64,000 nt of DNA from a virus (Duplodnaviria > Caudoviricetes), in IMG/VR virus record IMGVR_UViG_3300037067_007160, positions 66,356 to 130,355 of that record; one strand, 5' to 3'. A model generated the notes under the pieces. That model was not told the DNA's origin. It saw only the letters and a list, made by a program, of their open reading frames with translations, and did no database searches. This document shows, piece after piece, positions 6,263 through 26,332 of this stretch (the first letter of the stretch is position 1; the number at the start of each line of letters is the position of its first letter). The translations under genes and the position numbers were made by a program.

Positions 6263-6271
6263 TGATATAAT
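6263..6271 (+). promoter_or_regulatory. Extended -10 promoter element TGATATAAT
   Basis: TGnTATAAT with TCGACA 16 nt upstream of the TATAAT; same motif recurs before several genes. Confidence 0.6.
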
Positions 6272-6582: not shown

Positions 6583-7527
6583 ATGGCAGAAGCCTATCTT
6601 GAACTACGTGATCTAAAGATAAGGAATGCTGCCTTTCGTAGTGCATCTAGCCTATCAATGGACTATCTAATAGGAAGGATCAACGCCCTTCCTAGTACAT
6701 TGACGGGACTAAAGATTAGTGCATATAATCCAGTCGTTTCATCAACCGGGATTCAGCTGGATAATGTATATGGTCAGTTGACTCTTGAGGAGCAGGATAG
6801 AACAACCCACATACCAGTGGATGATGATAACTATGGAAACTCACGAGCGTTATCATCCGTTTCAATAGAGACAGGATCAACAGAGTCAAACTTCGCACCA
6901 AATGCTGATATTAGAGCTGTTATCGATGAAGAAGATGAGATATGGTGTGTGACGATGGCTGATGCTGATACAGACGCTGGTTCCATATGGATAAGGGTAG
7001 CTACTCCAGCGATAGCCCAGGTACCAAACTTTGTTGCCGTATATCCATTATCTGGAACGATAGTTGATACGATAAAGGTTAGACATACAAGTGGATATAC
7101 GACATTTACACCATCTTCTGAATGGCCAATAAAGTATCATCAGAACTTCTCAGACTACCAGAACGAGGTTAGAATCAAGCTAAATGGTGTAAGTAGTGGT
7201 AATGGAACCTATAAGTTTTCCCTTAAGAAGATAGAAATATATAGTGTTAGGTACGCATCAGAGGGAACCTTTACCTATCTAACGGAGGACGCATTTACTG
7301 ATATAGCATCGGTGACTATCAATAGCTCATACTTCTATCCAATAGTCTCACAGAATGTTGGAATGTTACGGATTAGAGTCCTAACAAAGGACTCGAGTAC
7401 GGTGCTCTACGATAGCTCAAGAGGGTCATCGGCGTTCGTTGTGCCTGCCGGACCAGAGCAAGTTGTCGTCGAGGGCACCCTCTATCGTACAGATGGGAAT
7501 ACGCCGTTTATAAGAACCATTACTTGA
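6583..7527 (+). CDS. Putative structural protein (true start may be upstream, near 6496)
   Basis: 314 aa ORF; frame open from 6463. Confidence 0.6.
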   Translation: MAEAYLELRDLKIRNAAFRSASSLSMDYLIGRINALPSTLTGLKISAYNPVVSSTGIQLDNVYGQLTLEEQDRTTHIPVDDDNYGNSRALSSVSIETGSTESNFAPNADIRAVIDEEDEIWCVTMADADTDAGSIWIRVATPAIAQVPNFVAVYPLSGTIVDTIKVRHTSGYTTFTPSSEWPIKYHQNFSDYQNEVRIKLNGVSSGNGTYKFSLKKIEIYSVRYASEGTFTYLTEDAFTDIASVTINSSYFYPIVSQNVGMLRIRVLTKDSSTVLYDSSRGSSAFVVPAGPEQVVVEGTLYRTDGNTPFIRTIT

Positions 7528-14215: not shown

Positions 14216-14232
14216 TTTTGAGGAGAGAACAA

Positions 14233-16086
14233 ATGAATCCATCTAACAAACTCTTGTCGGATATCGTTGCTTTTAGAACGTACGCTCGATATATATCTAA
14301 TCTATCAAGACGAGAATCATTGGAAGAAACGATTAACCGAAATATGGTAATGCATCTTGAGAGATTTCCAGCTCTCTCAAAAGATATTATCAAAGCATAT
14401 GGGTTGGTTCATGACAAACTTGTTATGCCTTCAATGAGAGCCCTTCAGTTCTCTGGCGAGGCTGTAAGAAGGAATAACCTTCGTCTCTTTAACTGCTCCT
14501 ATCTCTCTATAGATGATCCACACGCTTTCGCTGAAGTCCTCTACCTCCTTCTATCAGGTACAGGAGTCGGCTACTCCGTTCAGAAGAAACACATTAACAA
14601 GCTTCCTATCGTTGGTAGTCCGAGAGAGGATAACATATTCAAGATTCATGACTCCATAGAAGGTTGGGCACAGGCTATCCACGTTCTTGCTGAAGCCTAC
14701 TTCTATAGTAGAATTCGCCCAATATTTGACTACTCACAGATAAGGGTACGAGGGGCCAGACTATCTACTACAGGAGCAAAGGCTCCTGGGCCAGAACCAC
14801 TTAAACATATGCTAGAAACAGTTGAGAAGAAGTTTCAGAATGCAAGAGGAAGAAGGTTACGTCCAATAGAGGTTCATGATATCGCATGTATTGTTAGTGA
14901 CTGCGTCCTCGCTGGCGGAGTACGTAGATCTGCCATGATTAGCCTATTTGATAGGGATGATAAGGAGATGCTTACCTGTAAGAGTGGTGAGTGGTACATA
15001 CAACATCCATATAGAGCTAGGGCTAATAATAGTGTTGTCCTTCCAAGGAAAGAGGTTACAAAAGAAGAGTTTGAGCATATCTTCAAGATAACAGAGGAGA
15101 GTGGGGCCGGCGAACCTGGCTTCACATGGACAAGCAATTCTGACATGGGCGTCAATCCATGTTCAGAGATATCTCTCTTTTCCAATCAACTCTGTAACCT
15201 CACTAGCATTAATCAAAGGGGAATTGAAGATAAGGCCGACTTCCTTAGAAGAGTAAATGCTGCTACCCTTATTGGTACTCTTCAAGCTGCTTATACTGAC
15301 TTTCCATTTGTTAGACCAGTATGGAAAGAAGTGACTGAGAGAGAAGCTCTCCTTGGAGTTTCATTCACGGGCATTGCTGATAGTGGTAGCAAAATTACTA
15401 ATGATTGGCTTGAAGAAGGAGCCATCTATGCGAAAGAAGTTAATGAACGGATAGCGAAGAAGATTGGTATAAATCTTGCAGCACGAATAACCTGTGTTAA
15501 ACCAGAAGGAACACTATCAACTATTGTTGGTTCATCTTCTGGAATTCATGCACGACATGCGCCATATTACATACGAAGAATTCGTATGAGTAAGAACGAT
15601 GATCTAGCTCATTATCTATCTAATACAATACCCGATCTTGTAGAAGATGATATTGCAGCAGCCAATACTGTAGTCGTGTCAATACCGCAAGAAGCACCAG
15701 ATGGTGCTATTGTAAGGAATCAGGAAACTGCTCTAGACCTCCTTGATCGTGTAATGCGCTACAATAATAACTGGGTAAAACCAGGACATAGAAGTGGAGA
15801 TAATCTTCACAATGTGAGTTGTACTGTGTCTGTGAAACCTGATGAGTGGAACAAGGTTGGTGAGTTCATGTGGAAACACAGGGCCAATTACACAGGTATC
15901 TCCCTTCTACCATATGATGGAGGAGAATATAAACAAATGCCTTTCGAAGAATGTACAAAAGATAGGTATGATGAACTGATGTCGCATATAAAGACCATTA
16001 ACTTAAGGGAAATACATGAGAATGATGATATGACGGAATTTACTAAGACTGTAGCATGTTCTGGTGGAAAATGTGAACTTATATAA
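14233..16086 (+). CDS. nrdJ: Class II (adenosylcobalamin-dependent) ribonucleotide reductase
   Basis: FNCS, GGVRRSA, NPCSEI thiyl motif, VKPEGT, C-terminal CSGGKC. Confidence 0.92.
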   Translation: MNPSNKLLSDIVAFRTYARYISNLSRRESLEETINRNMVMHLERFPALSKDIIKAYGLVHDKLVMPSMRALQFSGEAVRRNNLRLFNCSYLSIDDPHAFAEVLYLLLSGTGVGYSVQKKHINKLPIVGSPREDNIFKIHDSIEGWAQAIHVLAEAYFYSRIRPIFDYSQIRVRGARLSTTGAKAPGPEPLKHMLETVEKKFQNARGRRLRPIEVHDIACIVSDCVLAGGVRRSAMISLFDRDDKEMLTCKSGEWYIQHPYRARANNSVVLPRKEVTKEEFEHIFKITEESGAGEPGFTWTSNSDMGVNPCSEISLFSNQLCNLTSINQRGIEDKADFLRRVNAATLIGTLQAAYTDFPFVRPVWKEVTEREALLGVSFTGIADSGSKITNDWLEEGAIYAKEVNERIAKKIGINLAARITCVKPEGTLSTIVGSSSGIHARHAPYYIRRIRMSKNDDLAHYLSNTIPDLVEDDIAAANTVVVSIPQEAPDGAIVRNQETALDLLDRVMRYNNNWVKPGHRSGDNLHNVSCTVSVKPDEWNKVGEFMWKHRANYTGISLLPYDGGEYKQMPFEECTKDRYDELMSHIKTINLREIHENDDMTEFTKTVACSGGKCELI

Positions 16087-16567
16087 GAGAAGGAAAACGG
16101 GAGGAAGGACAAAATATCTTGGATATTGTGTTGATTGTAAGATAGAAAAGACACAAAGATGGTATAGACTTAAAGAGAACAAATCAATGGCAAGATGCCA
16201 ACATTGTTATGGAAAACTTAGACTTTGCAATAAACAAGTAAGAGAAATAAGAAATAAGCAAAGAAAAGAATGGGGAGAGAAATATGCGTACAGAGTATTT
16301 CTCAATCTAGTAAAATATAAGAAGTACACAACAGATATAACAAATGAGGAATATCTAACCTATATAAAACAACCATGTCATTATTGTGGAGGTAGCCTTC
16401 CAAATAGCGGCATTCGTCTTGATAGGGTAGATAATACGATAGGATATCTAAACTCAAATGTCGTTCCTTGTTGTAAAACTTGTAATATTGCAAAGAACAA
16501 CAAGTCAGTAGAAGAGTTTAAGGTATGGGTTATCAATGTCTACAATAAATTTCAAATAGTTAAATGA
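16064..16567 (+). CDS. Free-standing HNH-type homing endonuclease overlapping nrdJ 3' end
   Basis: CHYCG..LDRVDN..GY...NVVPCC..CN..K motif; more AT-rich than neighbours. Confidence 0.8.
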   Translation: MENVNLYKRRKTGGRTKYLGYCVDCKIEKTQRWYRLKENKSMARCQHCYGKLRLCNKQVREIRNKQRKEWGEKYAYRVFLNLVKYKKYTTDITNEEYLTYIKQPCHYCGGSLPNSGIRLDRVDNTIGYLNSNVVPCCKTCNIAKNNKSVEEFKVWVINVYNKFQIVK

Positions 16568-16579
16568 TATAATTCCAAC

Positions 16580-17269
16580 ATGGAACCAAACTACTCACTT
16601 CAAAGGCCAGATTATGCCCTTCAGACGGGGTGGACACCAATACCACATGCTGTAGTACGGGTCTCCAACAATACCATATCTATTCTCTGTAATAGATCTA
16701 CATACATATCAGTTGGTGATAAGATACTTCTAACACAGACGACTGATAAGTACTTCGAAGTTACCAACATATCAGTTGTTGGAAATACAACAACAATAAC
16801 TCTTAGTAGTCCTGAGGGTAGTGTTGTGAGCACTGACACAATCTACTATTCCTACTTCTCCAAGAATGATAGACCCTATGGTTATACTTCGGTGGGAAGG
16901 TTCAAGGCAGGAAGTTTCTTGACACCACATGGTGCTGATCCTGATGTCCAAAGTGTGACAGGTATTGGATTTAAGCCAAAGGCTATTGTATTTCTTGGCG
17001 TTTGTGGCCAGACTCCATCTGCTGAAAATGGTATAGGAGTTGGTATAACAGATGGAACTTCCTCCTTCTCCATTGTAGGATATACAGTAGATGGTGGAGC
17101 CTCTGGTGGAGAAGGACCAACTGCGAATACGGTTTTCCAACAGATAGATACTGTAGGCGCCATAACTATGAGCGCCAATCTAACTTCTATGGATGTTGAT
17201 GGATTCACCCTTCTATATAGTTCAAAAGCAGTGAATCCATATGTCATTGCCTATCTTGCTATGGGATAA
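16580..17269 (+). CDS. Tail fibre-like small protein
   Basis: 229 aa; TGIGFKPKAI motif, Gly/Thr-rich. Confidence 0.55.
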   Translation: MEPNYSLQRPDYALQTGWTPIPHAVVRVSNNTISILCNRSTYISVGDKILLTQTTDKYFEVTNISVVGNTTTITLSSPEGSVVSTDTIYYSYFSKNDRPYGYTSVGRFKAGSFLTPHGADPDVQSVTGIGFKPKAIVFLGVCGQTPSAENGIGVGITDGTSSFSIVGYTVDGGASGGEGPTANTVFQQIDTVGAITMSANLTSMDVDGFTLLYSSKAVNPYVIAYLAMG

Positions 17270-17272
17270 TAG

Positions 17273-17281
17273 TGATATAAT
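17273..17281 (+). promoter_or_regulatory. Extended -10 promoter upstream of the ncRNA/ribozyme locus
   Basis: TGATATAAT. Confidence 0.6.
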
Positions 17282-17340
17282 AATAGTAATATACATGTGG
17301 CGCCTCTGTCTATGACACGCGCAAACTCCACATGTTTTAT

Positions 17341-17407
17341 GGGCCTTGGTGAGGACGCATAGAGCGTACCTGACACCTTAAGATAGGTTTTACTCCTATC
17401 TGGTCCA
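17341..17407 (+). ncRNA. tRNA-like small RNA (5-bp acceptor with G3:U70 equivalent, 7-bp T-like arm, no anticodon loop)
   Basis: GGGCC/GGTCC-A; AGATAGG-TTTTACT-CCTATCT; central hairpin capped by ATAGA. Confidence 0.6.
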
Positions 17408-17464
17408 AACTAGCAAAGATAGCCACCTCCACGTGGTGCTAGTTGGATAACGCTAAGAGCTATC
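17408..17464 (+). ncRNA. Minimal HDV-like (theta-type) self-cleaving ribozyme
   Basis: P1 AACTAGC/GCTAGTT, P2 GATAGC/GCTATC, P3 ACC/GGT, L3 TCCACGT, P1.1 GG, J4/2 GCTAA. Confidence 0.8.
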
Positions 17465-17492
17465 ACACAGGACGAAGGTCCAGGAGGATACA

Positions 17493-17939
17493 ATGGGAAA
17501 TAATTCAAATTCCAAGAAAGATAGACTATTGGGAATACCACACGGAACTGCTAATGGACAGTTACGAAAAATGTTGGTCTTTGACATGGCTAAACGTCTT
17601 GGATTACTAGACTGCTATAGATGTAAAGAACCTATTCTTAAGATAAGAGATTTTTCTATAGAACATAAAATACCATGGCAGTCATCTGAAGAACCAAAAG
17701 TAGCATTCTTTGACTTAGAAAACATTGCTTTCTCACACTTAAGTTGCAATAGTGGTGCGGGCAGTGGAAGTGGAAGAACCATTATATATCCTGAAGGGCA
17801 GAAGTGGTGTGGTATATGTAAATCGTTCAAATCACTCACAGAGTTTCCTGCCTGTGCAAAACGAGATAGAAGTAGAAACTGTAAAGAATGTCATAGCAAC
17901 TTAATGGCAAAATGGAGAGAAAGAACGGGAAGACACTAA
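17493..17939 (+). CDS. HNH-like endonuclease, paralog of 22079 ORF
   Basis: CYRC..SIEHKIPW...NIAFSHLSCN plus C-terminal Zn finger; AGGAGG RBS. Confidence 0.8.
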   Translation: MGNNSNSKKDRLLGIPHGTANGQLRKMLVFDMAKRLGLLDCYRCKEPILKIRDFSIEHKIPWQSSEEPKVAFFDLENIAFSHLSCNSGAGSGSGRTIIYPEGQKWCGICKSFKSLTEFPACAKRDRSRNCKECHSNLMAKWRERTGRH

Positions 17940-18029
17940 CTCCCATTCTGGTCCACCAATTTCGCTGACTGTGCGGGGCAGTCCATCTACATAAGATCCC
18001 CGTTGTCCCTTGCGAAAGGGGAGGTCATA

Positions 18030-19869: not shown

Positions 19870-19943
19870 GCCGGTTTCGTATAAAGGAATTATACCTCAC
19901 TCGTAATGAGGAGATCCTGGATCGTTACCAGGAACCGGCTCCA
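19870..19943 (+). tRNA. tRNA-Thr(CGT)
   Basis: GCCGGTT/AACCGGC, CCTCA-CTCGTAA-TGAGG, CCA. Confidence 0.88.
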
Positions 19944-19956
19944 GTGTTGTAGGGAA

Positions 19957-20013
19957 TCCGTGGATCCTCTCGCATAGAGCGAGTGCTGGTAAGACCGGCG
20001 GTGAAACCACGGG
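19957..20013 (+). ncRNA. Unassigned three-way-junction RNA element
   Basis: CCGTGG/CCACGG enclosing CTCGC-ATAGA-GCGAG and GCTGGT-AAG-ACCGGC. Confidence 0.45.
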
Positions 20014-20015
20014 CT

Positions 20016-20093
20016 GCTCATGTGGCGCAATTGGCAGACGCATCCGGCTTAGAACCGGAAATCCTGCAGGTTCGACTCCTGTCATGAGCACCA
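20016..20093 (+). tRNA. tRNA-Leu(TAG), short variable region
   Basis: GCTCATG/CATGAGC, TCCGG-CTTAGAA-CCGGA. Confidence 0.9.
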
Positions 20094-20109
20094 GATTTGA
20101 GGAGGTTAT

Positions 20110-20205
20110 ATGGATATTGAAGAGTTCGTTAGGTCACAAGTTGACCTACCAGAAGACTTTAAGAAATTACTTGAGGAGAACTTCTGGAATCTGATTCTTG
20201 AATGA
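20110..20205 (+). CDS. Small hypothetical protein (31 aa)
   Basis: GAGGAGG RBS; MDIEEFVRSQVDLPEDFKKLLEENFWNLILE. Confidence 0.55.
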   Translation: MDIEEFVRSQVDLPEDFKKLLEENFWNLILE

Positions 20206-20209
20206 TTTT

Positions 20210-20286
20210 GCCTCATTGGTGTAGCGGCTTGCATGCTTCCCTGTCAAGGAAGAGGCTGGCGGGTTCGACTCCCGCATGGGGCGCCA
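20210..20286 (+). tRNA. tRNA-Asp(GTC)
   Basis: CTTCC-CTGTCAA-GGAAG, GCCA end. Confidence 0.9.
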
Positions 20287-20296
20287 GATAGTAATT

Positions 20297-20382
20297 GGGC
20301 TTGTGGTGGAATGGCAGACACGTGCGCTTGAGGTGCGCATGGCCGCAAGGTCGTGGAGGTTCGACTCCTCTCAAGCCCACCA
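20297..20382 (+). tRNA. tRNA-Leu(GAG)
   Basis: TGCGC-TTGAGGT-GCGCA, long variable arm. Confidence 0.92.
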
Positions 20383-20383
20383 T

Positions 20384-20471
20384 GGAGAGTTGGGTGAGAG
20401 GCTTATACCAGAGGTTTGCTAAACCTCCGAGCCGCAAGGCTCCACAGGTTCGAATCCTGTACTCTCCACCA
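20384..20471 (+). tRNA. tRNA-Ser(GCT)
   Basis: GAGGT-TTGCTAA-ACCTC, long variable arm. Confidence 0.92.
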
Positions 20472-20477
20472 GATTTT

Positions 20478-20555
20478 GCGCCTGTCGTACAAATGGAAAG
20501 TACACTCGGCCTTTAACCGAGACTAGTGTGGGATCATACCCCACCAGGCGCACCA
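20478..20555 (+). tRNA. tRNA-Lys(TTT), C33 and atypical T-loop
   Basis: CTCGG-CCTTTAA-CCGAG; T-loop ATCATAC. Confidence 0.85.
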
Positions 20556-20571
20556 GATTTATGGGAGAAAT

Positions 20572-20886
20572 ATGGATAAAAGAACATATAAAGATAGAAG
20601 AGAATATCTCATAAAAGCAGTAAAGAGAAGAAGACGAGAATTAAGAAAACAAGCAGTGAATTATGCTGGAGGAAAGTGCATTTTATGCAATTATAATAAA
20701 TGCTTACATGCACTAGAATTTCATCATAAAGATCCAACACAGAAAGATTTTGGAATATCAAATGGTAATTGTAATAGTTGGAATAGAATGAGGAATGAAA
20801 TTGATAAATGTATTCTAGTCTGTGCAAATTGTCATAGAGAAATACATGAGAAATTGGCGTCTACCCATCAAGGTGACGGGTCCTGA
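20572..20886 (+). CDS. HNH endonuclease; stop codon inside tRNA-Asn
   Basis: CILC..LEFHHKDP..KCILVCANCHRE. Confidence 0.85.
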   Translation: MDKRTYKDRREYLIKAVKRRRRELRKQAVNYAGGKCILCNYNKCLHALEFHHKDPTQKDFGISNGNCNSWNRMRNEIDKCILVCANCHREIHEKLASTHQGDGS

Positions 20887-20932
20887 CTGTTAATCAGGCA
20901 CAAGGGTGGTTCGATCCCACCGACGCCAGCCA
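20855..20932 (+). tRNA. tRNA-Asn(GTT)
   Basis: TGGCGTC/GACGCCA, CCTGA-CTGTTAA-TCAGG. Confidence 0.85.
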
Positions 20933-20950
20933 AATTTAGGAGATATATAT

Positions 20951-21385
20951 ATGCATCTAACATACACAAAAGCACAATTAGCATCACTTAAAGTTCAAAT
21001 GTGGGCTAATCAATTAGGATATGTCGTTTCAATACCAACTGTTGAATCTAGATATGATATTCTTGTTGATGTTGATGGAAAAATATTTCGTTGTCAAGTT
21101 AAGTATGCTGGAAGAAAGCTTACAAGTGGGGCAACAGAGTTGGATCTTCGTAAAGAGACAAGAAATAATGGGAAAAAAAGATTATATACGAAAGATGAGA
21201 TAGATGTTATTCTTGTATATGTTCCTGAAGAAGACAAGGTTCTTTGGATTGATCATTCTAAATTTCATAATAGAAAAAGTCTAACAATTAGACATATTGA
21301 GAATACAAAATGTAAACAAGATTCAATATTTGTTAACGATTATATATGGGTCCAGAGCTCGGTTGGTAGAGCAGACGCCTCTTAA
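20951..21385 (+). CDS. PD-(D/E)XK homing-type endonuclease; stop codon inside tRNA-Lys(CTT)
   Basis: VSIP..RYDILVD..RCQVKY..Y...EID motif; AGGAG RBS before ATG 20951. Confidence 0.82.
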   Translation: MHLTYTKAQLASLKVQMWANQLGYVVSIPTVESRYDILVDVDGKIFRCQVKYAGRKLTSGATELDLRKETRNNGKKRLYTKDEIDVILVYVPEEDKVLWIDHSKFHNRKSLTIRHIENTKCKQDSIFVNDYIWVQSSVGRADAS

Positions 21386-21423
21386 GCGTAAGGTCGTGGG
21401 TTCGATTCCCACTGGTCCCACCA
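21348..21423 (+). tRNA. tRNA-Lys(CTT)
   Basis: ACGC-CTCTTAA-GCGT, TTCGATT loop, ACCA. Confidence 0.88.
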
Positions 21424-21430
21424 ATTTGTT

Positions 21431-21458
21431 GTGGGTCCAACTCCCACTCGACGCACCA
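21431..21458 (+). pseudogene. Orphan tRNA 3' remnant (T-arm, acceptor strand, ACCA)
   Basis: GTGGG-TCCAACT-CCCAC-TCGACGC-ACCA with no matching 5' half. Confidence 0.7.
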
Positions 21459-21463
21459 GATTT

Positions 21464-21539
21464 GGCCTTATAGTGAAATTGAATATCACATCTCCGTCCT
21501 AAGGAGAAGTTTTCGGTTTGAGTCCGAATAAGGCCGCCA
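21464..21539 (+). tRNA. tRNA-Arg(CCT)
   Basis: TCTCC-GTCCTAA-GGAGA. Confidence 0.88.
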
Positions 21540-21554
21540 GATATAGGAGTCTTC

Positions 21555-21923
21555 ATGAACAAGATACCACTAGTCTCAGTAACCAAAGATGACTTGGAAA
21601 TACAGACGTTTAGATGTGGAGGAAAAGGTGGCCAGCATCAGAATAAGACAGAAAGTGGAGTAAGAATTATTCATCCTCCATCTGGAGTAACAGTAGAGTC
21701 AAGAGAGGAACGGTCACAGGCACAGAACAAGGCTATTGCATTTAAGAGACTTACTACTAATAAGAAGTTTCTATTATGGTTAAAGATGGAATCGGCTAGG
21801 AAGATGGGCATCCTTGAAGATATTAATAGGGCAGTTGATAGGATGATGGATCCAAAGAATATAAAGACCGAAGTTAAAGAAGATGAGAAATGGGTAGAGA
21901 AGGAATTAGCGGGTGTGGTGTAA
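21555..21923 (+). CDS. Stand-alone RF-1-domain peptidyl-tRNA hydrolase (ArfB-like ribosome rescue factor)
   Basis: FRCGGKGGQHQNKTESGVRIIHPPSG..ERSQAQNK; lacks codon-recognition domains. Confidence 0.88.
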   Translation: MNKIPLVSVTKDDLEIQTFRCGGKGGQHQNKTESGVRIIHPPSGVTVESREERSQAQNKAIAFKRLTTNKKFLLWLKMESARKMGILEDINRAVDRMMDPKNIKTEVKEDEKWVEKELAGVV

Positions 21924-21982
21924 TGGTAGCATGAGACCCTTCCAAGGTCCAGGTACGAGTTCGAGTCTCGTCATCCGCTCCA
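21909..21982 (+). tRNA. tRNA-Gly(TCC)
   Basis: GCGGGTG/CATCCGC, CTTCCAA loop, TCCA. Confidence 0.9.
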
Positions 21983-21987
21983 GTTTT

Positions 21988-22059
21988 GACGGTGTAGCCT
22001 AATGGCTAGGCAACGGATTGCAAACCCGTTTTATGCTGGTTCGATTCCAGCTGCCGTCT
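21988..22059 (+). tRNA. tRNA-Cys(GCA) with substituted 3' acceptor strand, no encoded CCA
   Basis: TTGCAAA loop; GACGGTG/TGCCGTC; perfect 3' end CACCGTCTCCA displaced to 22485-22495. Confidence 0.85.
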
Positions 22060-22078
22060 CATTTTAGGGGTATTATAA

Positions 22079-22483
22079 TTGTTAAATAATAATAAGAAGA
22101 ATATACAACTCGAAATGAAATATGGAACAGCTTGTAATAAACTTAGAAAACTAATACTATTCACATTAGTTAAAGAAACAAAGAGAAATATATGTTATCA
22201 ATGTAAAAAAGAAATAACAAGTATCGATGATTTCACAATAGAACATAAGATTCCTTGGTTAGATAGTTTGGAACCAAAGAAATTGTTCTTTAGTATTGAT
22301 AATATTGGATTTTCTCACTATAAATGTAATATACGAGTTGCAAGAAAGATAAACAAGAAATATGCAACAAGAAATCAACGAGTAAGAGAATCTAGTAAAA
22401 GAATAAGAGATAGAATAAGGAAAACTAATCCAGAATTACTTAGACAGATTAGAAGAGAACAATATAGAAGGACAGGAAATTAA
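22079..22483 (+). CDS. HNH-like endonuclease, paralog of 17493 ORF
   Basis: GTACNKLRK..CYQC..TIEHKIPW..NIGFSHYKCN. Confidence 0.8.
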   Translation: MLNNNKKNIQLEMKYGTACNKLRKLILFTLVKETKRNICYQCKKEITSIDDFTIEHKIPWLDSLEPKKLFFSIDNIGFSHYKCNIRVARKINKKYATRNQRVRESSKRIRDRIRKTNPELLRQIRREQYRRTGN

Positions 22484-22496
22484 TCACCGTCTCCAT

Positions 22497-22590
22497 GGAA
22501 GAGCTGACCGAAGGCTGGCGCCGGTAGCTGTCTCGAAAACAGTCAGTCCAATGATTGGACCTGTGGGATCGTTCCCCACCTCTTCCGCCA
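22497..22590 (+). tRNA. tRNA-Ser(CGA)
   Basis: GCTGT-CTCGAAA-ACAGT, long variable arm, GCCA. Confidence 0.85.
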
Positions 22591-22600
22591 GATTTTAGAT

Positions 22601-22676
22601 GGACCTTTGGTGTAGGTGGTGTGCACGTCTGTCTGAAGCACAGAAGGAATCCGTTCGACTCGGATAGGGTCCACCA
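22601..22676 (+). tRNA. tRNA-Phe(GAA)
   Basis: TCTGT-CTGAAGC-ACAGA. Confidence 0.88.
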
Positions 22677-22682
22677 GAATAT

Positions 22683-22781
22683 GCGCCCGTTGACTAACGG
22701 TGAAGTCTCCCGCCTTATAAGCGGGCAAGTCAGGTCCTAGATTGGGGCCTCATCCAGGTTCGAATCCTGGCGGGCGTACCA
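22683..22781 (+). tRNA. tRNA-Ile(TAT) with very long variable arm
   Basis: CCCGC-CTTATAA-GCGGG; 28-nt variable region with 8-bp stem. Confidence 0.8.
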
Positions 22782-22789
22782 AGTTTAGT

Positions 22790-22802
22790 TGTTCTTTGAC
22801 AA
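22790..22802 (+). promoter_or_regulatory. Second boxA-like element
   Basis: TGTTCTTTGACAA followed by the same TATGGGCCTG as at the tmRNA. Confidence 0.55.
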
Positions 22803-22805
22803 TAT

Positions 22806-22880
22806 GGGCCTGTGGTGTAATTGCGAGCATTGATCCCCTGCAAGGATTAGGCGAGGGTTGGAATCCCTCCAGGTCCACCA
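22806..22880 (+). tRNA. tRNA-Ala(TGC), C33
   Basis: GGGCCTG/CAGGTCC G3:U70; GATCC-CCTGCAA-GGATT. Confidence 0.88.
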
Positions 22881-22884
22881 ATTT

Positions 22885-22959
22885 ACCCCTGTGGTGAAAC
22901 GAATATCATTTTGCGCTTCGAACGCAAAGTTGCGGGTTTGAATCCTGTCAGGGGTGCCA
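22885..22959 (+). tRNA. tRNA-Arg(TCG)
   Basis: TTGCG-CTTCGAA-CGCAA. Confidence 0.88.
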
Positions 22960-22960
22960 T

Positions 22961-23035
22961 GGGCCTATAGTGTAATGGATAGCACAAGACTCTACGAAAG
23001 TCTAAGTGATGGTTCAAGTCCATCTAGGCCCGCCA
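22961..23035 (+). tRNA. tRNA-Arg(ACG)
   Basis: AGACT-CTACGAA-AGTCT. Confidence 0.9.
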
Positions 23036-23043
23036 AATTTTAT

Positions 23044-23118
23044 CTAGCTGTAGCGTAATTGGTAGCGTCCACCGTTTGGGGCGGTGTGGTGAGAGTTCAA
23101 GTCTCTCCAGCTAGACCA
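23044..23118 (+). tRNA. tRNA-Pro(TGG)
   Basis: CACCG-TTTGGGG-CGGTG. Confidence 0.9.
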
Positions 23119-23135
23119 GTTTATGGGAGGAAGAA

Positions 23136-23327
23136 ATGAATAGGGGTAAAGTTGCTACAATTATAATTAAAGAAAAGAATGGGAGAAAATTACAGTTTGA
23201 TGTATCAGGTTACTCATATCGTTTCTCTAGGAAGAAAGTTCCAGTATTTGGAGTGACAGAGTTAGATCATATTATTATTGGTCCAGGAAAACTAACTATT
23301 TCAGCAAGATTACCTGCACCAAAATAA
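23136..23327 (+). CDS. Hypothetical protein (63 aa)
   Basis: GGGAGG RBS. Confidence 0.6.
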   Translation: MNRGKVATIIIKEKNGRKLQFDVSGYSYRFSRKKVPVFGVTELDHIIIGPGKLTISARLPAPK

Positions 23328-23390
23328 GATTTATAGATGTAGCACTTTTGTAAGAAAAATGTAGACGTTTTCCTTACAAAAATGTAGAAT

Positions 23391-23466
23391 GCTAATGTAG
23401 CACAATTGGCTGTGCACTTTCTTGGTAAGAAAGAGGATGTGGGTTCGAATCCCATCATTAGCTCCA
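23391..23466 (+). tRNA. tRNA-Thr(GGT)
   Basis: CTTTC-TTGGTAA-GAAAG. Confidence 0.9.
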
Positions 23467-23471
23467 GATTT

Positions 23472-23546
23472 GCCGATGTAGCTCAATGGTAGAGCAGTCG
23501 CTTTGTAAGCGAAAGGTTGGAGGTTCAAGTCCTCTCTTCGGCTCCA
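23472..23546 (+). tRNA. tRNA-Thr(TGT)
   Basis: TCGC-TTTGTAA-GCGA. Confidence 0.9.
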
Positions 23547-23551
23547 GATTT

Positions 23552-23743
23552 ATGAAGATCATAGAGACTATAAAAAGGTTCTGTATTAGACATCCAAAGT
23601 TGGCCCGTGTAGGTTGGACCTGGAGTCTACCAACTTTCAGTAAGAAGAATGAACCAGTAGAACATGAGGAAAGAAAGGTAGTAGCCCATTATTGTTGGTG
23701 TGGTCATTGTCATTGGGATCCACCTACTTGTTGTCAGAAGTAG
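23552..23743 (+). CDS. Small Cys/His-rich protein
   Basis: HYCWCGHCH..CC; ATG 23552 (track start lies inside a tRNA). Confidence 0.5.
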   Translation: MKIIETIKRFCIRHPKLARVGWTWSLPTFSKKNEPVEHEERKVVAHYCWCGHCHWDPPTCCQK

Positions 23744-23747
23744 ATTT

Positions 23748-23834
23748 GCCGCGTTGGCAGAGTGGTCTATCGCAGCTGACTGTAAATCAGCCGGACTATG
23801 TCCTTCGGTGGTTCGAATCCACCACGTGGCACCA
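23748..23834 (+). tRNA. tRNA-Tyr(GTA)
   Basis: GCTGA-CTGTAAA-TCAGC, variable arm. Confidence 0.92.
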
Positions 23835-23876
23835 TATTTGGTTCGCGAAGCCAAGCTAGAGCTTAAGATATAATTT

Positions 23877-23956
23877 GGCCATAACCACAAATCCTGGTGG
23901 TATTAGGCAAGTAAGCGTTGGTCCAGGAATCCAACGGACTATAAGTCCTGTAGCCA
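23877..23956 (+). ncRNA. Unassigned tRNA-sized four-way-junction RNA with possible kissing loops
   Basis: Closing stem GGCCATA/TGTAGCC; hairpins ACCAC/GTGGT, GTTGG/CCAAC, GGACT/AGTCC; TCCTG/CAGGA loop complementarity. Confidence 0.5.
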
Positions 23957-23960
23957 AATT

Positions 23961-24034
23961 GCGGGTGTAGTATAAAGGTAGTACGACACGTTGCCAACGT
24001 GTAGGCGCCGGATCGTTACCGGTCACCCGCTCCA
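23961..24034 (+). tRNA. tRNA-Gly(GCC)
   Basis: ACACG-TTGCCAA-CGTGT; T-loop ATCGTTA. Confidence 0.88.
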
Positions 24035-24042
24035 AGTTTATC

Positions 24043-24116
24043 GGGGTCGTGATGCAACTGGCAGACATCGAAAGCTCAAACCTTTCGTCCTGTGGGTTCG
24101 AGTCCCACTGACCCTA
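24043..24116 (+). tRNA. tRNA-Leu(CAA), short variable region, no encoded CCA
   Basis: GAAAG-CTCAAAC-CTTTC. Confidence 0.85.
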
Positions 24117-24202
24117 CGGTCCTGTAGCTCAAGTGACAGAGACAAATGTTACTATTGACATATAGTTCTGTTTAAGATATAATCTTGGTAGGAGGTCAGA
24201 TC

Positions 24203-24655
24203 ATGAATCCACCAAGATATTTACATCTGAAAGAACAAGTGATACATCTTCGTAAGCAAGGATTTGGTTATAGGTCAATTTCAAACAAGCTTAATAATAC
24301 CATTCCATGGAGTTCTGTAAGAAGACTAGTAATTGGAATGCGTAGTAATCCAAGACTAGCTTATCTAATGGCGACTGAATACTCTCAAAGGAGACCAAAG
24401 GAATGGAATGATATACGAACAATGAGAGTTCGTCGTTTGTATCTTATTCAAGAACGTGGTCATAAATGTGAAAGCTGTAATTTAAGTTTCTGGAAAAATC
24501 ATACTATTCCACTAGAACTTGAGCATAAGGATGGATGTAGAACTAATAATAGTAAATCTAATTTAGAGTTATTATGTCCTAATTGCCATGTTTTTACTCC
24601 TTATTATAAAGGAAAGAATACTTCATCTTTTCGAAGTAGGGCGAGTGTGGTGTAA
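24203..24655 (+). CDS. HTH + HNH endonuclease; stop codon inside tRNA-Leu(TAA)
   Basis: KCESC..LELEHKDG..NNSKSNLELLCPNCH; GGAGG RBS. Confidence 0.88.
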   Translation: MNPPRYLHLKEQVIHLRKQGFGYRSISNKLNNTIPWSSVRRLVIGMRSNPRLAYLMATEYSQRRPKEWNDIRTMRVRRLYLIQERGHKCESCNLSFWKNHTIPLELEHKDGCRTNNSKSNLELLCPNCHVFTPYYKGKNTSSFRSRASVV

Positions 24656-24717
24656 CTGGCAAACACTCTGATCTTAAAAATCAGATCTTGTGAGTTCGAA
24701 TCTCATCACTCGCACCA
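24641..24717 (+). tRNA. tRNA-Leu(TAA), short variable region
   Basis: GCGAGTG/CACTCGC, CTGAT-CTTAAAA-ATCAG. Confidence 0.88.
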
Positions 24718-24783
24718 ATTTAATATTAGCGAACTAGTGTCGGTTCGAGTCCGACCAGGACTACCATATTTATGGGAGGATGT

Positions 24784-24918
24784 ATGAAGAAAGACACATT
24801 AAGATGCCCATATTGTAAGGGTGATATGAGGCATTCGAAACCGGATCAGAACGGAAACGTAATTTGGAATTGTGACTATTGTAAAGCAACATTAGCTGAT
24901 AAAATATCCACCAAGTAA
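24784..24918 (+). CDS. Small zinc-ribbon protein (44 aa)
   Basis: CPYC..WNCDYC; GGGAGG RBS. Confidence 0.6.
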   Translation: MKKDTLRCPYCKGDMRHSKPDQNGNVIWNCDYCKATLADKISTK

Positions 24919-24921
24919 AAT

Positions 24922-25176
24922 ATGGCAGCGATACTAGGCTGGATCTCTACCATCATCTTCTCAGTCTGTATCCTACCACAGATCTGGAAGACTTGGAAGA
25001 GTAAGAGGGCTGATGATATCAGTATTGTCTCATGGCTCATGTTCTTTACTGGTAACGTAACCGCCCTAATATATGCTATAATGATAGTCCAATGGCCGCT
25101 GATCATTAAGTACGTTTTCGCACTTGCTGCATCTTTTCTATTGACAGTATTATGTTTATTGTATAAAAGGAGGTAG
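24922..25176 (+). CDS. PQ-loop/SemiSWEET-family membrane protein
   Basis: LPQIWKTWKSKRADDIS motif, three TM helices. Confidence 0.82.
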   Translation: MAAILGWISTIIFSVCILPQIWKTWKSKRADDISIVSWLMFFTGNVTALIYAIMIVQWPLIIKYVFALAASFLLTVLCLLYKRR

Positions 25177-25177
25177 C

Positions 25178-25402
25178 ATGCTCATGAAAGCGAAAGTAAA
25201 AGAATGGTTCCTTGGAAAGGCACTGAAGAAGGTTGCATCACAGGTTGCCATATTCGCGGTCGCCATAGTAGCGGCCGTCAACGCCAAGAACCTTGGAGTA
25301 AATATTAACATTGATCCTGATGTGCTGGCTGGATCCGTCTTCGCTGGTCTTCAGCTATTGCGCAACTTCCTCAAGACAAAGTATAATGTAGACTGGCTTT
25401 AA
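25178..25402 (+). CDS. Small membrane protein (holin-like)
   Basis: Two hydrophobic segments; AGGAGG RBS. Confidence 0.55.
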   Translation: MLMKAKVKEWFLGKALKKVASQVAIFAVAIVAAVNAKNLGVNINIDPDVLAGSVFAGLQLLRNFLKTKYNVDWL

Positions 25403-25412
25403 CATTCTCAAT

Positions 25413-25486
25413 GGCTCCGCAGCTCGAAGGTCGAGCATCCGGCCTACATCCGGAAGGGGCTGGTTCAATTCCAGCCGGGGTCACCA
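25413..25486 (+). tRNA. tRNA-Val(TAC), C33
   Basis: TCCGG-CCTACAT-CCGGA. Confidence 0.88.
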
Positions 25487-25557
25487 ACTTTGCGCTCAAA
25501 GCTCATATGGCTGAGCATATGTCGATAACTGTGATATAATTTAACTAGGAGGATATC

Positions 25558-25965
25558 ATGGATAAGACATGTGTTCTTTGTTGGAATAAAGTAAAGAAGT
25601 ATAGATCTGATATATGTGGATCATGTATGGTTTTAATACGGAGACTTCGTCTAAAACTTGCGTGTATAAAGTTACTTCATGGAAAATGTTTCAAATGCGG
25701 AATGATCGCAACATTGAAAAATCTAGGAGCATTTCAGTTTCATCATAAAGATCCAAGTGAGAAGAAGTTCCAGTTATCATTTGGTACATACTCTTGGGAT
25801 AAAATAAAAGAAGAAGCAAGAAAATGTGAACTTTGGTGTGCTAATTGTCATTCTATTAATCATGCAACAACATACACAGAAGAAAAGATTAATAGAGCTA
25901 TACGTTTTTGTGGAACTGAAGATATACATAATCTTGTAGCAGAATGGAAAATTATTGGCTCGTAG
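25558..25965 (+). CDS. HNH endonuclease; stop codon inside tRNA-Ile(GAT)
   Basis: KCFKC..FQFHHKDP..KCELWCANCH. Confidence 0.85.
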   Translation: MDKTCVLCWNKVKKYRSDICGSCMVLIRRLRLKLACIKLLHGKCFKCGMIATLKNLGAFQFHHKDPSEKKFQLSFGTYSWDKIKEEARKCELWCANCHSINHATTYTEEKINRAIRFCGTEDIHNLVAEWKIIGS

Positions 25966-26029
25966 CTTAATGGTCAAGCCATCGCTCGATAAGCGATAGA
26001 TGTGGGTTCGATTCCCAACGGGCCAACCA
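25956..26029 (+). tRNA. tRNA-Ile(GAT), cassette-borne, C33
   Basis: TGGCTCG/CGGGCCA, ATCGC-TCGATAA-GCGAT. Confidence 0.85.
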
Positions 26030-26093
26030 ATATGATAACCGGGAGATAGCAGGTTCGAATCCTGCTGGGCGCACCAAATACGGAGGACGCATA

Positions 26094-26129
26094 ATGGCGA
26101 AGAAGAAACCTCGTGGTGGCTGTAAGTAG
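26094..26129 (+). CDS. Possible micropeptide MAKKKPRGGCK
   Basis: GGAGG RBS; followed by hairpin ACTCCCC..GGGGAGT. Confidence 0.35.
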   Translation: MAKKKPRGGCK

Positions 26130-26163
26130 ATAGAAGACTCCCCTCAACTTGGGGGAGTTACTT

Positions 26164-26236
26164 TGCGGAGTCATTCAATGGTAGGATGTCGCTCTCTGAA
26201 AGCGATAACGTTGGTTCAACTCCAGCCTCCGCAGCC
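26164..26236 (+). tRNA. tRNA-Gln(CTG)
   Basis: TCGCT-CTCTGAA-AGCGA. Confidence 0.88.
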
Positions 26237-26327
26237 GGAAGATTGGCCGAGTGGTTTAAGGCACTCGTCTTGAAAACGAGAGGACCTGATGAAGGTTCCA
26301 CTGGTTCGAATCCAGTATCTTCCGCCA
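26237..26327 (+). tRNA. tRNA-Ser(TGA)
   Basis: CTCGT-CTTGAAA-ACGAG, long variable arm. Confidence 0.92.
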
Positions 26328-26332
26328 ATTTT

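What the first reader, a model, noticed from the sequence alone, without database searches (positions are those of the whole stretch)
17341..17407. 67-nt anticodon-less tRNA-like RNA with a 5/7 acceptor-T fold and alanine identity
Seen: 5-bp acceptor GGGCC/GGTCC (G:U at position 3, A discriminator, same terminal 5 bp as this phage's tmRNA and tRNA-Ala) next to a 7-bp arm with 7-nt loop TTTTACT, giving the 12-bp acceptor branch of a tRNA in 5/7 rather than 7/5 form. The D and anticodon arms are replaced by one bulged hairpin with an ATAGA pentaloop. Inference: alanylatable decoy or donor (EF-Tu/SmpB/anticodon-nuclease decoy, or Ala donor for non-ribosomal transfer).
Basis: partly seen in the sequence, partly recalled or inferred. 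Interest (0 to 1): 0.75.

Follow-up and report, generated by a model that had tools for sequence, protein, structure and literature searches.

The report
Anticodon-less tRNA-like phage RNA, ribozyme-trimmed
A phage gene encodes a 67-base RNA shaped like the acceptor half of an alanine tRNA with no anticodon. In this genome a selfish ribozyme-plus-nuclease insert sits exactly at its 3' end and would cut it free. No distant relatives could be found, so what the RNA does remains inference.

Summary
Bases 17341-17407 fold into a 5-bp acceptor stem (G3.U70, A73), a bulged 11-bp hairpin with an AUAGA loop, and a 7-bp arm with a 7-nt loop (z -3.7).

It looks like a real tRNA-type gene derived from tRNA-Ala. 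It shares its ends with the phage's tRNA-Ala and tmRNA. It has its own TGATATAAT promoter. In a wetland sister phage it continues straight into an encoded CCA and the usual tRNA trailer.

This note did not mention that a P4-less HDV-like (theta-type) ribozyme begins at 17408. With an HNH gene and a decayed 17-nt copy of the RNA's 3' end, it forms a 548-bp insert between A73 and CCA. The predicted cut site is the insertion junction, so the cut would regenerate the RNA's 3' end.

No tRNA or tmRNA model matches the element. No homologue was found in any reachable collection, so covariation, expression and charging are all untested. The alanine-acceptor reading is plausible. The decoy or donor role is a guess.

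The nearest precedent is the TLD-only ssrA of mycobacteriophage DS6A. This scan had already noted ribozyme-nuclease cassettes at tRNA ends on other DNA.

The parts
17273..17281 (+). Extended -10 promoter TGATATAAT, about 12 nt before the leader hairpin
   Evidence: This exact 9-mer occurs 11 times on the + strand of the 130-kb record and never on the - strand. One copy precedes the tmRNA and others precede HNH cassettes. Function as a promoter is inferred.
17293..17335 (+). 5' leader hairpin (ACAUGUGG...CCACAUGU) followed by UUUAU
   Evidence: Present in the MFE and centroid folds of the intergenic region. Its role is unknown. It would be removed by an RNase P cut at 17340/17341 (inferred).
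17341..17407 (+). 67-nt anticodon-less tRNA-like RNA. Acceptor 17341-45/17402-06, discriminator A17407, bulged hairpin 17348-17377 (loop AUAGA 17359-63), T-like arm 17381-87/17395-17401 (loop UUUUACU 17388-94).
   Evidence: Fold. Ends shared with tRNA-Ala and tmRNA. No tRNA or tmRNA model hit at E<=10.
17408..17464 (+). Minimal, P4-less HDV-like (theta-type) self-cleaving ribozyme. P1 17408-14/17438-44, P2 17418-23/17459-64, P3 17425-27/17435-37, L3 UCCACGU 17428-34, P1.1 C17429-30 with G17445-46, putative catalytic C17453. Predicted cut between 17407 and 17408.
   Evidence: RF02682 scores 26.2 bits, E 0.005 on the 321-nt scan, below the gathering score of 44. Of 22 IMG/VR matches to its 16-nt P3/L3 core, 15 have the full P1+GG+P2 fold with 11 different P1 helices, against 0.14% at random positions.
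17493..17939 (+). HNH endonuclease gene (148 aa), Shine-Dalgarno AGGAGG at 17482-87
   Evidence: PF01844 at 24.8 bits, above its cut-off. phrog_23251 at E 4e-22. Relatives at 41-62% identity lie in 16 IMG/VR loci, and in 7 of these a tRNA gene ends just upstream.
17939..17958 (+). Displaced, diverged copy of the RNA's last 17 nt (ACTCCCATTCTGGTCCA, versus ACTCCTA-TCTGGTCCA at 17392-17407), followed by the original CCA (17956-58) and trailer ATTT
   Evidence: Read directly. The copy has 1 substitution and 1 insertion and no longer pairs with the 5' strand of the T-like stem.
17408..17955 (+). The 548-bp insert (ribozyme + HNH + 3' copy). The boundaries can slide left by up to 9 nt (17399-17946) because TCTGGTCCA is repeated.
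   Evidence: A 525-nt contig of wetland run X6 joins 17398 to 17947, with 9 letters fitting both sides. Landfill run X2 and wastewater run X5 carry the occupied form.

Best explanation
This is a resident small-RNA gene of the phage. It derives from a tRNA-Ala-type gene and keeps only the acceptor branch.

The RNA has a 12-bp acceptor/T stack re-partitioned as 5+7, and a T-loop that keeps U54, U55 and A58. The D and anticodon arms are replaced by one capped helix.

The proposed pathway is as follows. The RNA is transcribed from its own promoter. Its 5' end is cut by RNase P (inferred). It ends in CCA.

In the uninvaded allele the CCA is encoded, followed by the AU-rich trailer used by the phage's tRNAs.

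In this genome a ribozyme-HNH homing cassette has landed between A73 and CCA. Its HDV-like ribozyme cuts at the junction. That cut releases the RNA ending in A73 with a 2',3'-cyclic phosphate, and the HNH mRNA with a 5'-OH. The host CCA-adding enzyme must then heal and extend the RNA (inferred).

The mature RNA most likely accepts alanine from the host AlaRS through G3.U70/A73, as minihelices do. Because it cannot decode, it would act as a non-translating acceptor-arm mimic. Candidate roles are a competitor or decoy for factors that read the tRNA acceptor end (AlaRS, EF-Tu, end-modifying or end-cutting defence toxins), or an alanine donor.

Shown here: the fold, the alleles, the ribozyme anatomy and the tRNA-type flanks. 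Inferred: RNase P processing, CCA addition, charging and the trans function.
For: The fold is well defined, and all 23 pairs are Watson-Crick except G3.U70. A decaying pseudogene would be expected to show mismatches.

The first 11 nt match tRNA-Ala positions 1-12 with one deletion. The 3' end GGTCCACCAATTT matches tRNA-Ala including the trailer. Of the phage's 33 tRNAs, 29 encode CCA, most followed by a (R)ATTT-type trailer.

The empty-site allele reads ...CCTATCTGGTCCA-CCA-ATTTCG.

A strand-specific promoter motif lies directly upstream.

The ribozyme is real, and its cut site coincides with the discriminator. Close relatives with the same A1 start follow phage tRNAs directly, in L015 by ARAGORN and in L023 by fold. 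Theta ribozymes are published as tRNA 3'-end processors (PMC10879173).

The HNH family sits at tRNA 3' ends in other phages. In L048 it also has a duplicated tRNA end.

The alanine determinants A73, G2-C71 and G3.U70 are present. Alanine minihelix charging is established (Francklyn and Schimmel 1989, listed).

A precedent for a phage anticodon-less Ala-type RNA exists: the DS6A TLD-only ssrA (PMC4131195; located).
Against: No homologue was found beyond near-identical sister phages, so there is no covariation. The searches were pattern scans of IMG/VR, JGI metagenomes and GTDB genomes and a covariance model over 305 kb of held loci plus five phage records.

The distant jumbo-phage relative XacN1 has no such element upstream of the homologous gene.

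There is no expression evidence. G4-C69 and G20 of the bacterial alanine set are absent. C56 and R57 of the T-loop are absent.

No partner protein was found in the 130-kb record, which is 52% complete: no CCA enzyme, SmpB, FemAB, RtcB, LigT or AlaRS.

The ribozyme's exact placement could serve only the cassette, by freeing the HNH mRNA. The 5/7 geometry alone is common by chance.
Confidence: 0.5

Rival explanations
1. It is a relic: a remodelled, non-functional copy of a tRNA-Ala gene. It persists because it is young or neutral, and it merely offers a tRNA-like DNA target to the ribozyme-HNH cassette. The RNA has no trans function.
For: This phage's tRNA region is littered with broken tRNA genes left by nuclease cassettes (earlier notes e1-5844598 and e1-5844596, not re-tested here). 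No homologues were found anywhere. The element lies outside the tRNA array and is absent at the syntenic site in XacN1. Both alleles seen in other runs showed no listed differences within the element, so no constraint can be measured.
Against: There are zero mismatches in 23 bp, with the only wobble exactly at 3:70. The T arm is not a decayed tRNA-Ala T arm. It is a different, perfect 7-bp helix that keeps the 12-bp stack. It retains its own promoter, CCA and trailer.
Confidence: 0.25
2. It is a cis-acting processing module. The tRNA-like fold in the 5' leader of the downstream operon (the 268-aa gene at 18030) exists to recruit RNase P and 3' processing. This sets the mRNA's 5' end or stability, and the excised RNA is a by-product.
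For: In the empty allele the element lies between a promoter and the next start codon, about 71 nt upstream of it. 'Isolated' relatives of the ribozyme are often preceded by a plain hairpin ending 0-2 nt before the cut (L009, L022). This fits a general transcript-punctuation role.
Against: A processing signal does not need G3.U70, A73 or an encoded CCA. Ordinary tRNAs of this phage are also co-transcribed with ORFs.
Confidence: 0.12
3. It is a TLD-only tmRNA analogue that titrates SmpB and blocks host trans-translation, as proposed for the phage DS6A RNA.
For: It has the same three-way layout as a tmRNA tRNA-like domain: acceptor, a long irregular helix in place of the anticodon arm, and a T arm. 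It has the Ala-type end and lies 2 kb from the phage tmRNA. Hudson et al. cite evidence that TLD-like molecules inhibit tmRNA.
Against: It gets no tmRNA-model hit at E<=10, whereas the DS6A TLD scores 43 bits. Only 2 nt stand where the TLD has its D-loop analogue. The T-loop lacks C56 and R57. The phage encodes a full tmRNA of its own and no SmpB in the available half.
Confidence: 0.08
4. It is a chance fold with no biological meaning.
For: The 5/7 geometry alone occurs about 17 times per shuffled genome.
Against: z = -3.7. The ends are identical to tRNA-Ala, with CCA, trailer and promoter. A tRNA-end-specific cassette is inserted exactly at position 73|74.
Confidence: 0.03

Closest known systems
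tmRNA tRNA-like domain, and the TLD-only ssrA of mycobacteriophage DS6A (Hudson, Lau, Williams 2014, PMC4131195; JN698994 28478-28560)
   Same: Both are phage-encoded, lack an anticodon, have an alanine-type acceptor end, and form a three-way junction of acceptor stem, capped long helix and T arm.
   Different: DS6A keeps a 7-bp acceptor, the D-loop analogue and a canonical GUUCGAUUC T-loop, and scores 43 bits on RF00023. The element here is 5/7, has a 2-nt linker instead of a D-loop analogue, has the loop UUUUACU, and gets no tmRNA hit.
Alanine minihelices and microhelices (Francklyn and Schimmel 1989; Hipps and Schimmel 1995, both listed in PMC9976931)
   Same: Both have a 12-bp acceptor/T stack with G3.U70 and A73, which is enough for AlaRS in vitro. 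The 1995 title reports growth inhibition by sequence-specific minihelices.
   Different: Those are laboratory constructs with a 7/5 origin. This one is natural, carries an extra 30-nt helix, and has C4-G69 instead of G4-C69.
Theta ribozymes (tRNA-associated minimal HDV-like ribozymes of Caudoviricetes; Kienbeck et al. 2024, PMC10879173)
   Same: Both are minimal HDV-like folds whose cut site abuts the 3' end of a tRNA-type RNA that lacks an encoded CCA.
   Different: Here the upstream RNA is not a tRNA by any gene finder, position 1 is A rather than G, and the host environment is groundwater, landfill or wetland rather than gut. The ribozyme is the first element of a mobile HNH insert whose empty site is documented. 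The paper never mentions HNH, homing or endonucleases.
tRNAs with 8/4 or 9/3 acceptor branches (Mukai et al., PMC5389517)
   Same: The 12-bp acceptor branch is conserved while the acceptor/T split is shifted.
   Different: Those shift toward a longer acceptor and are decoding tRNAs. This one shifts the other way (5/7) and has no anticodon.
Free-standing HNH homing endonucleases in phage tRNA clusters (T5 F-Tfl enzymes, T4 Seg/Mob; from general knowledge and earlier notes of this scan) and R2 retrotransposon 5' HDV-like ribozymes (general knowledge)
   Same: A selfish nuclease gene lodged in or next to an RNA gene. Like R2 in 28S rRNA, the insert is co-transcribed with its host RNA gene and frees itself with an HDV-like ribozyme at its own first nucleotide.
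   Different: This is a DNA homing cassette rather than a retroelement, and the target is a tRNA-like gene.
Phage T4 stable RNAs species 1 and 2 (rnaC, rnaD), recalled from memory and not checked here
   Same: Small stable RNAs of unknown function, encoded with phage tRNAs and matured by the tRNA pathway.
   Different: They are longer and have a different fold. No paper on them could be retrieved.

Membership tests
Canonical tRNA (Rfam RF00005) | Cloverleaf with D arm and an anticodon arm bearing a 7-nt loop with U33 | tested here: not met
   The fold has one 11-bp hairpin with a 5-nt loop. Opening the last pair gives CAUAGAG with A at position 33. ARAGORN does not call it.
Canonical tRNA (Rfam RF00005) | Score on the tRNA covariance model | tested here: not met
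   No RF00005 hit at E<=10 in a 321-nt scan with lax filters.
Canonical tRNA (Rfam RF00005) | 12-bp acceptor/T coaxial branch, 7-nt T-loop, no base between T stem and acceptor 3' strand, discriminator plus CCA | tested here: met
   The branch is 5+7 bp with loop UUUUACU and a 0-nt junction. CCA is encoded in the empty allele. T-loop positions C56 and R57 are not kept.
tmRNA tRNA-like domain (Rfam RF00023) | Score of the two ends on the tmRNA model, D-loop analogue, canonical T-loop | tested here: not met
   No RF00023 hit at E<=10. The positive control, the DS6A TLD-only RNA, scores 43.2 bits.
tmRNA tRNA-like domain (Rfam RF00023) | G3.U70, A73, CCA | tested here: met
Bacterial alanine acceptor identity (A73, G2-C71, G3.U70, G4-C69, G20; PMC9976931) | A73, G2-C71, G3.U70 | tested here: met
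   Read directly.
Bacterial alanine acceptor identity (A73, G2-C71, G3.U70, G4-C69, G20; PMC9976931) | G4-C69 and G20 | tested here: not met
   The pair is C4-G69, as in the phage's own tRNA-Ala and tmRNA. There is no D-loop, so no G20.
Bacterial alanine acceptor identity (A73, G2-C71, G3.U70, G4-C69, G20; PMC9976931) | Actual charging by AlaRS | not testable with these tools
   This needs an aminoacylation assay.
HDV-like / theta ribozyme (RF02682, RF00094; Kienbeck 2024) | Nested double pseudoknot: P1, P1.1 (GG with L3 CC), P2, P3 with a 7-nt L3, and a C at the start of J4/2 | tested here: met
   All elements were placed. The same layout occurs in 15 of 22 IMG/VR sequences that share the core, with P1 and P2 covarying, against 0.14% in controls.
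HDV-like / theta ribozyme (RF02682, RF00094; Kienbeck 2024) | Rfam gathering score | tested here: not met
   26.2 bits against a cut-off of 44. The clear relative in L006 is also below threshold, at 35.8 against 50 and 25.6 against 44. The curated models under-score this phage subfamily.
HDV-like / theta ribozyme (RF02682, RF00094; Kienbeck 2024) | Cut site within 5 nt of a tRNA 3' end (definition of 'tRNA-associated') | tested here: inconclusive
   The cut is 0 nt from the discriminator of a tRNA-like RNA that tRNA finders do not call.
HDV-like / theta ribozyme (RF02682, RF00094; Kienbeck 2024) | Self-cleavage | not testable with these tools
   This needs in-vitro transcription with a C17453U control.
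HNH endonuclease (PF01844) | HNH motif above the Pfam cut-off | tested here: met
   24.8 bits against 21.4. phrog_23251 at E 4e-22.

The most novel reading that the evidence does not exclude
Phages encode a previously unrecognised class of alanine-accepting, non-decoding 'acceptor-branch' RNAs, built 5/7 and invisible to tRNA and tmRNA finders. These RNAs act in trans on the host's tRNA-end machinery. For example, they could soak up acceptor-end-targeting defence toxins, AlaRS or EF-Tu. They matter enough that an invading homing cassette carries a ribozyme to keep them functional.
Probability: 0.2. Interest if true: 0.85.

Novelty: new variant of a known kind. Interest (0 to 1): 0.6.

Why it matters
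If the RNA is made and charged, it would be a natural alanine minihelix. That would give a biological use to a molecule known for 35 years only as a laboratory substrate. It would also be a second, structurally different example, after DS6A, of phages making anticodon-less Ala-type RNAs.

It also shows that gene finders and Rfam miss such RNAs. Some of the 526 'isolated' theta ribozymes in the literature may in fact follow non-canonical tRNA-like RNAs.

The documented empty and occupied alleles show an HDV-like ribozyme acting as the leading edge of a DNA homing cassette. This suggests one origin for tRNA-associated ribozymes that the theta-ribozyme paper does not consider.

Tried and rejected
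**Homologue searches, all empty or chance hits only**
- blastn of the locus against GenBank phages.
- Structure-tolerant DNA patterns for the element in IMG/VR, JGI metagenomes and GTDB genomes. All matches failed to fold.
- The variant 3' end CTCCCATTCTGGTCCACCA in IMG/VR.
- The shared tRNA-Ala/tmRNA leader motif in IMG/VR.
- A single-sequence covariance model over 305 kb of held loci, XacN1 and five whole phage records.

**Synteny routes**
- The upstream 229-aa gene has 65-68% identical relatives (P0002-P0005). Their contigs could not be fetched. The search for related loci found none in IMG/VR or the JGI set.
- The downstream 268-aa gene gave no IMG/VR relatives. It has only 24-27% identical relatives in XacN1-type jumbo phages, with no element at the syntenic site.

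**Other checks**
- Expression: no RNA holder listed. The one RNA-seq-labelled contig is flagged as probably DNA and stops inside the element.
- Neighbour genes gave no functional clue.
- No paralogue of the element exists in the 130-kb record.
- I considered reading the 7-nt loop UUUUACU as an ochre-suppressor anticodon loop (UUA). I rejected this because position 37 is C and there would then be no T arm.
- I considered that the whole element came in with the cassette, as in the nuclease-plus-spare-tRNA design. I rejected this because the empty allele keeps the element, and no 5' remnant exists between the upstream ORF and the element.
- The MAFFT alignment of the ribozymes was out of structural register and was not used for pair counts.

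Full report
**Setting.** The window is the second half of a 130-kb IMG/VR phage record, estimated 52% complete. It carries 33 tRNA genes and a tmRNA. Near-identical DNA occurs in groundwater, landfill, wastewater and wetland metagenomes.

**Observation.** They fold exactly as described:
- a 5-bp acceptor stem GGGCC/GGUCC with G.U at 3:70 and A as discriminator;
- two linker bases;
- an 11-bp hairpin in 4+3+4 blocks with bulges and an AUAGA loop;
- three linker bases;
- a 7-bp arm with the loop UUUUACU that abuts the acceptor 3' strand.

The fold has an energy of -28.7 kcal/mol, takes 66% of the ensemble, and has z = -3.74. None of 200 shuffles folds as well. It persists in the context of the whole intergenic region. 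Every pair except 3:70 is Watson-Crick.

The first five pairs and A73 equal those of the phage's tRNA-Ala and tmRNA. I tested how special the bare 5/7 geometry is, and it is not special. There are 49 such arrangements in the record against about 17 in shuffled genomes. The case therefore rests on the accompanying features, not on the geometry.

**It is a tRNA-type gene derived from tRNA-Ala.**
- The first 11 bases (GGGCCTTGGTG) match tRNA-Ala positions 1-12 with one deletion.
- The 3' side matches through the trailer: CTGGTCCACCAATTT against CAGGTCCACCAATTT. The interior is unrelated.
- Of the 33 tRNAs, 29 encode CCA, usually followed by a (R)ATTT-type trailer.
- The 9-mer TGATATAAT, an extended -10 motif, occurs 11 times on the + strand and never on the - strand. 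One copy precedes the tmRNA. Another lies at 17273-17281, just before a leader hairpin and the element.
- No tRNA or tmRNA covariance model matches the element at E<=10, and ARAGORN does not call it.

**The part this note did not mention: the 3' end is a junction with a mobile insert.** A relaxed Rfam scan places an HDV-like ribozyme at 17408-17465 (RF02682, 26.2 bits, E 0.005, below the gathering score of 44). All elements of the nested double pseudoknot can be placed:
- P1 at 17408-14/17438-44;
- GG at 17445-46, pairing with CC of L3;
- P2 at 17418-23/17459-64;
- P3 ACC/GGU;
- L3 UCCACGU;
- a C at 17453 opening J4/2;
- P4 essentially absent.

I searched IMG/VR for the 16-base P3/L3 core. Of 22 matches, 15 have a complete P1 (6-7 bp) + GG + P2 arrangement with 11 different P1 helices. 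The same detection procedure succeeds at 0.14% of random positions. Relatives with the same A1 start follow phage tRNAs directly, in L015 by ARAGORN and in L023 by fold. This is the published theta-ribozyme context (PMC10879173). The relative in L006 is also below Rfam's thresholds, so the curated models under-score this subfamily. The predicted cut falls between A17407, the discriminator, and A17408.

**The insert and its two alleles.** An HNH gene lies after the ribozyme (17493-17939; Pfam HNH above its cut-off; phrog_23251). Directly after its stop codon comes a diverged copy of the RNA's last 17 bases, then CCA and the trailer.

Laying Logan contigs on the locus shows both alleles:
- A wetland contig joins 17398 to 17947, skipping 548 bases with nine ambiguous letters. 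This gives ...CCTATCTGGTCCA-CCA-ATTTCG, the uninterrupted gene with an encoded CCA.
- Landfill and wastewater contigs carry the occupied form.

The insert therefore lies between position 73 and CCA, and its first nucleotide is the ribozyme's first nucleotide. Relatives of the HNH protein (41-62% identity) occur in 16 IMG/VR loci. In seven of these a tRNA gene ends 30-50 nt upstream. In L048 a copy of the tRNA's 3' end again follows the stop codon. None of them has a ribozyme.

My inference is this. Those relatives insert after CCA and the trailer, so normal 3' processing survives. This one removed CCA and the trailer from the RNA, and the ribozyme substitutes for them. The two changes in the displaced copy may also protect it from the nuclease.

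This scan had already noted ribozyme-nuclease cassettes at tRNA ends on other DNA. I confirmed the design here independently for this locus. The library holds no paper linking HDV-like ribozymes, homing endonucleases and tRNA, and the theta-ribozyme paper does not mention nucleases.

**What the RNA does.** Nothing here measures function. The element carries A73, G2-C71 and G3.U70 of the bacterial alanine set. It lacks G4-C69 and G20, as the phage's tRNA-Ala and tmRNA lack G4-C69. Minihelices with G3.U70 are AlaRS substrates (references).

Its loop keeps U54, U55 and A58. It has lost C56 and R57, the two residues that by established tRNA structure contact the D-loop, and this RNA has no D-loop.

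The layout is that of a tmRNA tRNA-like domain with its long helix capped. A phage precedent exists: mycobacteriophage DS6A encodes 'little more than the TLD', and similar molecules inhibit tmRNA (PMC4131195). I located that RNA at JN698994 28478-28560, where it scores 43 bits on the tmRNA model. Our element scores nothing and has no D-loop analogue, so an SmpB decoy is the less likely variant.

The available half-genome encodes no CCA enzyme, SmpB, FemAB-type transferase, RtcB, LigT or AlaRS. Neighbouring genes are uninformative.

**Limits.** I found no homologue beyond near-identical sisters, despite pattern scans of three collections, a covariance model and synteny routes. Covariation therefore remains untested, as do transcription and charging.

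**Verdict.**
- A real, tRNA-Ala-derived, anticodon-less tRNA-like gene matured by the tRNA pathway, with a ribozyme-made 3' end in this genome: about 0.5. Within that, alanylation is likely and the trans role is open.
- A young relic: about 0.25.
- A cis processing module: about 0.12.
- An SmpB-titrating TLD analogue: about 0.08.
- Chance: about 0.03.

Noticed in passing
L006:6754-6828 (IMGVR_UViG_3300044956_000678), just upstream of the HDV-like ribozyme at 6829-6898: A GC-rich cloverleaf-like RNA. It has a 9-bp closing stem, a 4-bp arm, a 10-bp arm with a 5-nt loop where an anticodon arm would be, and a 5-bp arm with the 7-nt loop AUCGAGA. One unpaired C follows, then the ribozyme's G1. No tRNA model hit and no ARAGORN call. 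This may be a second anticodon-less tRNA-like RNA in front of a theta-type ribozyme.
   Followed up: partly
IMG/VR loci L002-L023: The 16-mer CCACCTCCACGTGGTG (P3 plus L3) is a very specific probe for HDV-like ribozymes. Of 22 exact matches, 15 are complete folds, mostly 'isolated' ones preceded by a hairpin that ends 0-2 nt before the cut (L004, L009, L022).
   Followed up: partly
whole record G000; in the window at 6263, 16565, 17273, 19201, 25532, 26469, 59858: The exact 9-mer TGATATAAT occurs 11 times on the + strand and 0 times on the - strand, typically just upstream of genes, the tmRNA and HNH cassettes. It is probably the phage's main promoter -10 element.
   Followed up: partly
window 19870-28892: Of 33 tRNA genes, 29 encode CCA, and most are followed by a (G/A)ATTT-type trailer. 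The exceptions are Cys 21988, Leu 24043, Gln 26164 and Glu 26903.
   Followed up: no
L048:2380-2900 (IMGVR_UViG_2898484519_000011): A homologue of the HNH gene follows tRNA-Ser(GCT). After its stop codon comes GGTGCTACCGCCA, a 12/13 copy of the tRNA's 3' end GCTGCTACCGCCA. This is the same insert design without a ribozyme.
   Followed up: partly
window 16064-16567: A second nuclease-like ORF (167 aa; endonuclease VII / HNH PHROG hits) starts inside the last 23 nt of the ribonucleotide-reductase-like ORF (14218-16086). It is probably another free-standing homing endonuclease.
   Followed up: no
JN698994.1 28478-28560 (Mycobacterium phage DS6A): The TLD-only ssrA described by Hudson et al. is not annotated in the GenBank record. 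It lies between gp33 and gp34 and ends in ACUA rather than ACCA.
   Followed up: partly
window 17266-17295: A 152-nt contig of landfill run X2 shares only this 30-nt promoter stretch, with two small insertions and different DNA on both sides. The promoter segment therefore recurs in other contexts in related phages.
   Followed up: no
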